Assembly (NCBI GenBank): GCA_947585915.1
Contig: CANPXJ010000001.1
Span: 1 to 51,730 of the forward strand
Direction of reading: 5' to 3'
Source of the DNA: an uncultured Bacilli bacterium
Lineage (GTDB): Bacteria; Bacillota_I; Bacilli_A; RF39; UBA660
DNA: 51,730 nucleotides
The position numbers were made by a program, and so were the translations under genes. The notes below the pieces were generated by a model. The model saw nothing but the letters and a program-made list of their open reading frames with translations, ran no database searches and had not been told where the DNA came from. Below, piece after piece: positions 24,879-25,245 of this stretch (position 1 is the first letter of the stretch; every line of letters starts with the position of its first letter).

Positions 24879-24926
24879 GAAAATTATCTTGTTGATAAAA
24901 AACTCAAAATATGCTATATTGAATAT

Positions 24927-25037
24927 GCAAGAGATACTTGCATATAATAAAAAAGGAACAAATTAACAGTTGCATGTTAGTTGTTGCCTATATGTTTTGC
25001 TAAATCACCTAATCATGTAAAATTAGGTGATTTTTTT
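24927..25037 (+). ncRNA. Candidate small RNA, convergent with the 29-aa peptide gene (putative type I antitoxin)
   Basis: Plus-strand promoters: TTGATA(24892-24897)-17-TATATT(24915-24920), and/or TTGAAT(24919-24924)-18-TATAAT(24943-24948). Internal hairpin TATGCAAG/CTTGCATA. Ends at the 12-bp terminator plus T7 at 25002-25037. Confidence 0.35.
25002..25037. terminator. Strong hairpin shared by convergent units
   Basis: AAATCACCTAAT (25002-25013) pairs perfectly with ATTAGGTGATTT (25022-25033). T7 follows on the plus strand. On the minus strand an A7 run precedes the stem and only a short U tract follows it. Confidence 0.7.
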
Positions 25038-25125
25038 ACTTTAAGACTAAAATCAAGATGATGATAAGAATAAGTAAAAAAATTATAGTGAATAAAGAAG
25101 AGATTACCAAATCTTTCTTAGACAT
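25036..25125 (-). CDS. 29-aa hydrophobic peptide MSKKDLVISSLFTIIFLLILIIILILVLK (type I toxin-like)
   Basis: Not in the ORF track. Strong RBS AGAGGGGTGAT lies 4 nt before ATG 25125. Single TM helix with a charged N-terminus. Has its own promoter. Stop TAA at 25036-25038 abuts the terminator. Confidence 0.5.
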   Translation of the reverse strand: MSKKDLVISSLFTIIFLLILIIILILVLK

Positions 25126-25190
25126 TATATCACCCCTCTCTTCCTTAGAATTAAGAGGCAACACCTAACGTGTTAATTCATTCCACATTT

Positions 25191-25219
25191 ATTATATCGA
25201 ACAATTGTTACTATTTCAA
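25191..25219 (-). promoter_or_regulatory. Promoter of the 29-aa peptide gene
   Basis: Minus strand TTGAAA(25219-25214)-17 nt-TATAAT(25196-25191). Confidence 0.55.
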
Positions 25220-25245
25220 TGTTTTTCTTTACTTTTCGTAAAAAA

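What the first reader, a model, noticed from the sequence alone, without database searches (positions are those of the whole stretch)
24892..25219. Unannotated 29-aa hydrophobic peptide gene with a convergent small-RNA unit: type I toxin-antitoxin-like locus
- **Peptide gene (seen, minus strand):** TTGAAA-17-TATAAT promoter (25219-25191), a ~65-nt leader in which CCUCU can pair with AGAGG of the RBS, a strong RBS, and the ORF MSKKDLVISSLFTIIFLLILIIILILVLK (25125-25036).
- **Convergent unit (seen, plus strand):** one or two good promoters (24892-24920 and/or 24919-24948) drive a ~100-nt non-coding stretch.
- **Shared 3' end (seen):** the plus-strand unit ends at the same 12-bp perfect hairpin (25002-25033), so the two transcripts would overlap at their 3' ends.
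- **Established:** Firmicute type I systems such as txpA/RatA, bsrG/SR4 and fst/RNAII encode ~30-60-aa single-TM peptides. They are controlled by cis-encoded antisense RNAs, often with 3' overlap and RBS sequestration.
- **Inference:** this is such a system, or otherwise a small membrane protein with an antisense regulator.
Basis: partly seen in the sequence, partly recalled or inferred. Interest (0 to 1): 0.6.

Follow-up and report, generated by a model that had tools for sequence, protein, structure and literature searches.

The report
New antisense-RNA toxin-like peptide cassette
The flagged 350 bases are one of at least six copies in this genome of an unannotated cassette (a 29-residue membrane peptide gene facing a small antisense RNA gene) that is widespread in one lineage of uncultured herbivore-gut Bacilli and is built like an RNA-controlled (type I) toxin-antitoxin pair, though neither toxicity nor transcription has been tested.

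Summary

- **Distribution:** the locus is a roughly 355-bp cassette (24891-25245). This 1.39-Mb genome holds at least 6 copies. The sRNA model hits 81 of 151 genomes (one per genus) in the same GTDB family and 0 of 137 sampled outside it.
- **Coding evidence:** 80 of 108 sRNA copies face an SD-preceded hydrophobic ORF of 17-36 codons, and pooled pN/pS is 0.30.
- **RNA structure:** two sRNA hairpins covary strongly.
- **Correction:** the 12-bp hairpin has no U-tract on the peptide strand. The peptide mRNA probably ends about 90 nt further on, so it overlaps most of the sRNA.
- **End-to-end helix:** the mRNA's 5' end pairs with its own 3' end. Cognate pairs average -33.6 kcal/mol, against -22.1 for non-cognate pairs, and 10 of 11 pairs show compensatory changes. 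The sRNA is complementary to that 3' arm.
- **SOS control:** a paralogue carries a perfect copy of this genome's LexA-type box; the window copy has a degenerate one.
- **No known relatives:** there are no Pfam, NCBIfam or Rfam matches.

It is most like bsrG/SR4 and is probably a new type I toxin-antitoxin family. This scan has already noted the same family in 24 other genomes.

The parts
25191..25219 (-). Peptide-gene promoter, TTGAAA-17-TATAAT. The spacer holds a degenerate LexA-type box, GTAACAATTGTTCGA (plus-strand CGAACAATTGTTAC at 25198-25211).
   Evidence: Promoter scan, 11 of 12 matches. A promoter in this position is conserved across family copies. The box has 3 mismatches to this genome's consensus AGAACAWWTGTTTGR, and 450 sites in the genome match that well. 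The paralogue on contig C36 has a perfect box.
25157..25184 (-). Predicted 5' end of the peptide mRNA (GGAAUGAAUUAACACGUUAGGUGUUGCC). It is the 5' arm of a long-range helix that closes the mRNA on its own 3' end.
   Evidence: Duplex with its own 3' UTR is -30.9 kcal/mol. The helix is present in the minimum-free-energy fold of the 237-nt RNA, z = -5.05. Family covariation covers 10 of 11 outer pairs, with 92% of cells paired against 27-51% when the partner is slid.
25131..25158 (-). Anti-SD CCUCUU (25158-25153), a small hairpin, and the SD GAGAGGGGUG (25140-25131).
   Evidence: Leader fold. P(SD paired) is 0.72 in family leaders against 0.45 in 250 control genes of this genome, and 0.85 in full-length family mRNAs.
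25036..25125 (-). 29-codon ORF, MSKKDLVISSLFTIIFLLILIIILILVLK: a basic N-terminus followed by one hydrophobic helix.
   Evidence: ORF list. Paralogues and homologues of the form M-x-K-K-D-[FL]-[LVI]-I-... occur in relatives. Pooled pN/pS is 0.30 over 204 pairs, and identical peptides are encoded by different DNA.
25002..25033 (.). 12-bp perfect hairpin. With the U-run at 25034-25040 it is the sRNA terminator. On the peptide strand it is an internal 3'-UTR hairpin without a U-tract.
   Evidence: Terminator scan. All 8 modelled pairs show compensatory changes. U-tract asymmetry.
24955..24988 (+). sRNA stem-loop 2 (GGAACAAAUUAACAGUUGCAUGUUAGUUGUUGCC). Its complement on the minus strand is the 3' arm of the mRNA closing helix.
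   Evidence: Folds. 7 of 8 pairs show compensatory changes. It is similar in sequence to the mRNA 5' end.
24944..24954 (.). A-rich linker of the sRNA. It corresponds to the U-tract (UUUUUUAUUAU) that follows the last hairpin of the peptide mRNA, so it marks that mRNA's probable 3' end.
   Evidence: It is nearly invariant in about 100 copies. A U-run directly follows the 3' pairing partner in all examples printed.
24892..24920 (+). Conserved sRNA promoter, TTGATA-17-(TG)C-TATATT. The predicted start is near 24927.
   Evidence: Promoter scan. TTGnnA-17-TGnTATAAT is conserved in the aligned copies.
24923..24945 (+). Palindrome ATATGCAAG-5-CTTGCATAT.
   Evidence: Fold. The sequence is nearly invariant, with only 2 of 6 pairs showing compensatory changes, so an RNA role and a DNA-level role cannot be separated.
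24926..25040 (+). Predicted sRNA of about 115 nt with three hairpins.
   Evidence: Model R1 scores 110.8 bits here. The fold has z = -4.1.

Best explanation
This is one copy of an undescribed family of type I toxin-antitoxin-like cassettes.

**Shown by sequence and comparison**
- A promoter drives a peptide mRNA of about 235 nt. Its first 28 nt pair with its last roughly 35 nt, closing the molecule. Its SD is buried in local structure.
- The mRNA encodes a 29-residue peptide with one hydrophobic helix.
- A convergent promoter drives an sRNA of about 115 nt. This sRNA is perfectly complementary to the last roughly 90 nt of the mRNA, including the 3' arm of the closing helix.

**Inferred**
- The sRNA docks on the mRNA 3' end, probably starting at the complementary hairpin loops.
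- It displaces the mRNA's own 5' end and creates a long duplex for RNase III, which this genome encodes. It also exposes the 5' end.
- The peptide mRNA would then be destroyed before the peptide, presumed to damage the membrane, is made.
- In part of the family, and perfectly in the contig C36 paralogue, a LexA-type box in the peptide promoter adds SOS control. In the window copy that box is degenerate.
For: - **Copy number:** at least 6 copies in this genome, several of them breaking contigs.
- **Distribution:** 81 of 151 family genomes hit, up to 17 matches per genome, with tandem arrays; 0 of 137 genomes outside the family.
- **Variable sites:** the cassette is absent from the trxB-csoR spacer of a relative and from upstream of csoR in same-genus genomes.
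- **ORF retained:** 80 of 108 copies keep it, always ending within about 20 nt of the sRNA 3' end.
- **Purifying selection:** pN/pS 0.30.
- **sRNA hairpin covariation:** 97% of cells paired against 28-40% when slid, with 0 of 500 shuffles as high.
- **5'-3' helix:** cognate -33.6, non-cognate -22.1 and shuffled -12.4 kcal/mol; covariation supports it; mean pairing probability is 0.86.
- **SD sequestration:**
- **Decayed peptide genes:** several copies have a decayed peptide gene beside an intact sRNA.
- **RNase III present**.
- **LexA box:** the consensus is defined on lexA, a Y-family polymerase gene and other promoters, with recA carrying a similar imperfect box, and it is perfect in the C36 cassette.
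- **Architecture:** it matches published 3'-overlapping Gram-positive systems (PMC6562991, PMC8594479).
Against:
- Toxicity is untested.
- The peptide has no similarity to any known toxin.
- Blocking the overlap in silico does not change SD pairing (0.85 against 0.83), so a bsrG-like effect on translation is not supported.
- The sRNA has no good complementarity to the SD or start region (best -15.7 kcal/mol).
- The finding of decayed peptide genes beside intact sRNAs is biased, because copies were found by searching with the sRNA.
- Family members are related to one another, so the covariation and pN/pS statistics overstate independence.
- The LexA box of this particular copy is no better than 450 other sites in the genome.
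Confidence: 0.72

Rival explanations
1. A real peptide-plus-antisense-RNA gene pair whose peptide is not a toxin. It could be a small membrane regulator, for example a damage-induced division or transport modulator, whose level is tuned by the sRNA.
For: The evidence for coding and for the RNA fits this reading equally well. LexA-type boxes in about a third of the promoters recall the SOS-induced small membrane division inhibitors of Gram-positive bacteria (from general knowledge). The peptide lacks the charged C-terminal tail found in many type I toxins.
Against: Several features are typical of selfish toxin-antitoxin cassettes rather than dedicated regulators. These are up to 17 copies per 1.2-Mb genome, tandem arrays, site-to-site variability between species, frequent decay of the ORF, and a tightly closed mRNA predicted to be translationally silent.
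Confidence: 0.2
2. A non-coding miniature mobile repeat (MITE-like), whose promoter-like, terminator-like and ORF-like features are incidental.
For: It is about 355 bp, multicopy and intergenic. Its two ends are inverted-repeat-like, because both transcription units start with similar sequence.
Against: - Conservation between genera ends at the two -35 boxes, not at terminal repeats.
- The ORF keeps its frame, start codon, SD and amino-acid pattern while the DNA diverges to about 67% identity, and pN/pS is 0.30.
- The hairpins covary as RNA helices.
- No transposase or target-site duplication was seen.
Confidence: 0.04
3. An ordinary bidirectional terminator between trxB and csoR, with a chance small ORF.
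For: All flanking genes are on the minus strand, and trxB needs a terminator.
Against: The same cassette occurs at many unrelated sites. A relative with trxB next to csoR has a spacer of about 118 bp without it. The ORF and the sRNA are conserved family-wide.
Confidence: 0.01

Closest known systems
bsrG/SR4 (and txpA/RatA, bsrE/SR5, yonT/SR6) of Bacillus subtilis
   Same: - Convergent genes.
- The antitoxin RNA is complementary to about 100 nt of the toxin mRNA 3' end.
- The toxin mRNA has a main helix formed by its 5' and 3' parts, which the antitoxin invades.
- The SD is sequestered.
- The RNase III route is available.

The published features are from PMC6562991.
   Different: - No sequence similarity of the peptide or the RNA.
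- The peptide is half the size (22-30 aa) and lacks a charged tail.
- No predicted extension of the SD helix on antitoxin binding.
- The cassette is chromosomal, multicopy and found in an uncultured lineage, not prophage-borne.
- Part of the family carries LexA-type boxes.
par of Enterococcus faecalis pAD1 (Fst / RNA I-RNA II) and the Fst/Ldr family
   Same: - Convergent promoters and a shared terminator hairpin whose complementary loops could start pairing.
- An intramolecular helix holds the mRNA 5' end, and a stem-loop hides the SD.
- A charged K-D pair lies at the peptide N-terminus.

The published features are from PMC7472228.
   Different: - No PXXXG motif and no charged C-terminal tail.
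- No direct repeats giving the sRNA complementarity to the translation start.
- No match to any Pfam or Rfam family.
hok/sok of plasmid R1 and aapA1/isoA1 of Helicobacter pylori
   Same: The full-length toxin mRNA is closed by a 5'-3' long-distance helix and is predicted to be translationally inert (the properties of hok and aapA1 are from general knowledge).
   Different: In those systems the antisense RNA binds the 5' region after 3' trimming. Here the sRNA is complementary to the 3' arm itself. There is no leader ORF and no sequence similarity.
tisB/istR-1 and dinQ/agrB of Escherichia coli
   Same: A LexA operator lies in the toxin promoter. It is perfect in the contig C36 paralogue, and an AAC-N4-GTT core is present in 25 of 72 family promoters.
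   Different: Those antitoxins are encoded divergently on the 5' side (PMC8594479). The window copy's box is degenerate.

Membership tests
Type I toxin-antitoxin systems (general definition) | A small (about 20-60 aa) hydrophobic peptide gene with its own promoter and SD | tested here: met
   A 29-aa ORF with promoter and SD, conserved with pN/pS 0.30.
Type I toxin-antitoxin systems (general definition) | A cis-encoded antisense RNA gene with its own promoter and terminator, sharing a complementary region with the toxin mRNA | tested here: met
   A conserved promoter, covarying hairpins and a U-run terminator are present. The overlap is about 90 nt if the mRNA ends at its U-run. This rests on sequence only.
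Type I toxin-antitoxin systems (general definition) | Both RNAs are actually transcribed | not testable with these tools
Type I toxin-antitoxin systems (general definition) | The peptide is toxic when overproduced and the RNA neutralises it | not testable with these tools
   This needs expression experiments.
Fst/Ldr (par) family | PXXXG motif in the hydrophobic domain and a charged C-terminal tail | tested here: not met
   The motif and the tail are absent from the window peptide and from the family peptides listed. There is no Pfam hit of any kind.
Fst/Ldr (par) family | Direct repeats DRa and DRb that make the antitoxin 5' end complementary to the toxin translation start | tested here: not met
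   The best duplex of the sRNA with the mRNA outside the 3' overlap is only -15.7 kcal/mol and is heavily interrupted.
BsrG/SR4, TxpA/RatA group | The antitoxin overlaps the toxin mRNA 3' end by roughly 100 nt | tested here: met
   The predicted overlap is 24946-25040. The RNA ends are predictions.
BsrG/SR4, TxpA/RatA group | Homology of the toxin peptide or the antitoxin RNA to family members | tested here: not met
   No Rfam hit at E <= 10 other than chance-level matches. No Pfam or NCBIfam hit.
BsrG/SR4, TxpA/RatA group | Antitoxin binding extends the helix that sequesters the SD (specific to bsrG) | tested here: not met
   With the overlap blocked in silico, P(SD paired) is 0.83 against 0.85 in the free mRNA, over 58 cassettes.
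LexA-controlled type I systems (tisB, dinQ, symE) | A LexA operator in the toxin promoter | tested here: inconclusive
   The window copy has 3 mismatches to the genome's own consensus, and 450 sites match that well. The C36 paralogue is one of only 6 perfect sites in the genome.

The most novel reading that the evidence does not exclude
This is a lineage-wide family of toxin cassettes, partly wired to the SOS response. In it the antitoxin sRNA is a sequence mimic of the toxin mRNA's own 5' end. The sRNA would act by strand displacement: it competes with the 5' end for the 3' arm of a covarying end-to-end helix, switching the mRNA from a closed, protected state to an open, degradable one.
Probability: 0.3. 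Interest if true: 0.7.

Novelty: new variant of a known kind. Interest (0 to 1): 0.55.

Why it matters
[quoted passage not shown] This cassette would add a large family of hundreds of copies from an uncultured, genome-reduced gut lineage. No gene caller has recorded these peptides: six of them, including this one, gave no exact match among 15 billion proteins.

It combines features usually seen separately: a 3'-overlapping antitoxin, a fold-back closed mRNA and, in part of the family, a LexA box. The abundant natural sequence variation is a ready-made data set for studying RNA-RNA recognition.

For annotation, these cassettes explain many 'empty' AT-rich spacers and contig breaks in such metagenome-assembled genomes.

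Tried and rejected
1. **sRNA pairing to the SD or start region.** Only a weak, interrupted duplex was found (-15.7 kcal/mol).
2. **A heteroduplex between the two similar 5' hairpins as a cognate-specific contact.** Cognate pairs average -18.1 and non-cognate pairs -16.6 kcal/mol, so there is no real specificity. The similarity is better explained by the mRNA 5'-3' helix.
3. **RNAalifold on MAFFT-aligned leaders to recover the SD hairpin.** This failed because the arms are misaligned. I used per-sequence pairing probabilities instead.
4. **A simple no-bulge hairpin finder to test leader-terminator covariation.** It mis-called terminators in three subfamilies. I replaced it with the model-based alignment. 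That alignment showed the 3' arm of sRNA stem-loop 2 and the 3' arm of the terminator sharing 6.9 of 10 positions, against 5.6 in shuffles.
5. **The second plus-strand promoter as the main sRNA promoter.** Its -35 is poor in most copies.
6. **bsrG-like extension of the SD helix on antitoxin binding.** Not supported.
7. **MITE and plain-terminator readings.** Rejected; see the rival explanations.

Full report
**Observation.** The intergenic region between trxB (26166-25246, minus strand) and csoR (24831-24556, minus strand) is 414 bp long.
- a minus-strand promoter, TTGAAA-17-TATAAT (25219-25191);
- an SD, GAGAGGGGTG;
- the 29-codon ORF at 25125-25036;
- a 12-bp perfect hairpin at 25002-25033;
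- two plus-strand promoter-like sites at 24892-24920 and 24919-24948.

csoR has its own promoter, with a CsoR operator in the spacer (24878-24849), so the cassette is not part of the csoR control region. Promoter-like hexamers alone are not above chance in this DNA: 11 were found against 8.8 expected. No Rfam family matches the region, and no Pfam family matches the peptide.

**The locus is a repeated cassette.** Window positions 24891-25245 recur in the same 1.39-Mb, 26.5% G+C assembly:
- contig C38, 86% identity;
- contig C85, 85% identity;
- contig C75, 80% identity, cut by the contig end;
- contigs C36 and C10, more distant copies, C10 also cut by a contig end.

Each complete copy keeps a small ORF. 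C38 and C85 encode MTKKDCVILFLLLIIFLLIKIILDLT, and C36 encodes MKKKDLLISFLILIIILLIVSIMILCIKK, even where DNA identity is only about 67%. The flanking genes are unrelated housekeeping genes: lgt and uvrA, rluD and lspA, a type II antitoxin pair, and an integrase-like gene.

Record titles of relatives identify the organism as an uncultured Bacilli lineage from rabbit and ruminant guts.

**Distribution.**
- A covariance model of the sRNA unit (R1) matches 81 of 151 genomes (one per genus) in the same GTDB family. Up to 15 matches occur per genome in that sample and 17 in the order sample, including tandem arrays.
- It matches none of 137 genomes from other families of the class.
- None of 80 trxB loci from relatives carries the cassette.
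- The one relative with trxB next to csoR has a spacer of about 118 bp holding only the csoR promoter.
- In same-genus genomes csoR follows a tRNA gene, without a cassette.

The cassette therefore moves, or is gained and lost, independently of its neighbours.

**The peptide gene is real.**
- Of 108 complete sRNA hits in the fetched loci, 80 face an SD-preceded ORF of 17-36 codons with a basic N-terminus and a hydrophobic core. That ORF ends within about 20 nt of the sRNA 3' end.
- A few more have the stop codon inside the hairpin.
- Pooled pN/pS over 204 pairs is 0.30, and identical peptides are encoded by DNA differing at up to 6 positions.
- About ten copies have a decayed peptide gene (premature stop, frameshift or deletion) beside an intact sRNA. 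This count is biased, because copies were found through the sRNA.
- The peptides match no Pfam or NCBIfam model. Six tested peptides are absent from a 15-billion-protein collection.

**The sRNA.**
The second lies inside a nearly invariant palindrome and has a weak -35 in most copies.
- From a start near 24927, the RNA of about 115 nt folds into three hairpins (z = -4.1).
- On 99 distinct copies aligned to the model, 97% of cells pair, against 28-40% when the partner is slid. Stem-loop 2 has compensatory changes at 7 of 8 pairs and the terminator at 8 of 8. The alignment was fitted to the model, so these figures lean towards the structure.
- The 5' palindrome hardly varies, so I cannot separate an RNA role from a DNA role for it.

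**The peptide mRNA is closed end to end.**
- On the peptide strand the 25002-25033 hairpin lacks a U-tract.
- Downstream lies the complement of sRNA stem-loop 2, directly followed by UUUUUUAUU. This is a better terminator.
- The predicted mRNA 5' end (GGAAUG..., 25184) pairs with that 3' segment at -30.9 kcal/mol in this copy.
- Over 68 cassettes the mean is -33.6 kcal/mol, against -22.1 for non-cognate partners and -12.4 for shuffled 5' ends.
- The outer helix shows compensatory changes at 10 of 11 pairs, with 92% of cells paired against 27-51% when slid.
- The helix appears in the minimum-free-energy fold of the 237-nt RNA (z = -5.05). Its mean pairing probability over 58 cassettes is 0.86.

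This helix explains why the sRNA looks like the mRNA leader: the sRNA is the complement of the arm that the leader pairs with. Earlier notes of this scan on other genomes led me to test this idea.

**Translation control.** The SD is predicted to be paired with probability 0.72 in leaders alone, against 0.45 in control genes, and 0.85 in full-length mRNAs. Blocking the overlap, to mimic bound sRNA, leaves this unchanged at 0.83. I therefore infer that the sRNA works mainly through mRNA decay rather than by closing the SD further. RNase III is encoded. Hfq was not found in this 92%-complete genome.

**SOS link.**
- This genome has lexA.
- The motif AGAACAWWTGTTTGR occurs perfectly at only six sites: lexA itself, a Y-family polymerase gene, two Bro-N genes, a RhuM-like gene, and the peptide promoter of the C36 cassette. 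recA has a close variant.
- The window copy carries GTAACAATTGTTCGA at the same promoter position. That is 3 mismatches, and 450 sites in the genome match equally well.
- Across the family, 25 of 72 peptide promoters have AAC-N4-GTT abutting the -10 box.

SOS control is thus plausible for part of the family and doubtful for this copy.

**Comparison with known systems.**
- The layout is closest to the 3'-overlapping Bacillus systems, especially bsrG/SR4, whose mRNA also has a 5'-3' main helix invaded by the antitoxin (PMC6562991).
- It shares convergent promoters, a common hairpin and 5' sequestration with par of pAD1. It lacks the PXXXG motif, the charged tail and the DRa/DRb repeats (PMC7472228).
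- The fold-back recalls hok and aapA1, and the LexA box recalls tisB and dinQ.
- It is not a member of any of these families by sequence.

I read it as a new family of a known kind of system, with confidence 0.72 that it is a true toxin-antitoxin pair.

Noticed in passing
Own genome contigs: C4:4665-4679 (lexA), C45:4629, C41:112, C59:8747, C7:33930, C19:4599, C58 (about -82 from the recA start): A candidate LexA regulon for this uncultured lineage. The motif AGAACAWWTGTTTGR sits in the promoters of lexA, a Y-family DNA polymerase gene, two Bro-N domain genes, a RhuM-like gene and an ORF6N-like gene. recA has a variant of it.
   Followed up: partly
Own genome contig C36:14188-14713, next to the cassette at C36:15303-15668: A Phd/YefM-like antitoxin ORF (85 aa) and an overlapping 105-aa ORF, looking like a type II toxin-antitoxin pair, lie immediately beside the type I-like cassette that has the perfect LexA box.
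   Followed up: no
G087:C11:6255-8057 (L144) and G233:C6:18945-25484 (L172): Relatives carry arrays of cassettes. One has five copies at 350-520-bp spacing, mixing three peptide subfamilies. Another has four copies spaced about 2.1 kb apart, which suggests a larger repeated unit.
   Followed up: partly
L022, L157, L122, L146:389-507, L148, L021, L162, L150, L152: These copies keep the sRNA and terminator intact, but the facing peptide gene has a premature stop, a frameshift, or survives only as its last few codons.
   Followed up: partly
window 25002-25013 and 25131-25137: The 5' arm of the hairpin (AAAUCACCUAAU) contains AUCACCU. This is complementary to the AGGUGAU-type extended SD present in many family copies and resembles the 3' end of 16S rRNA (from general knowledge). 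Whether this is functional or a by-product is unknown.
   Followed up: no
L177-L180 (same-genus genomes), upstream of csoR: In four of five same-genus genomes csoR-copA is preceded by a tRNA gene rather than by trxB, so the trxB-csoR adjacency in this window is a recent rearrangement.
   Followed up: partly
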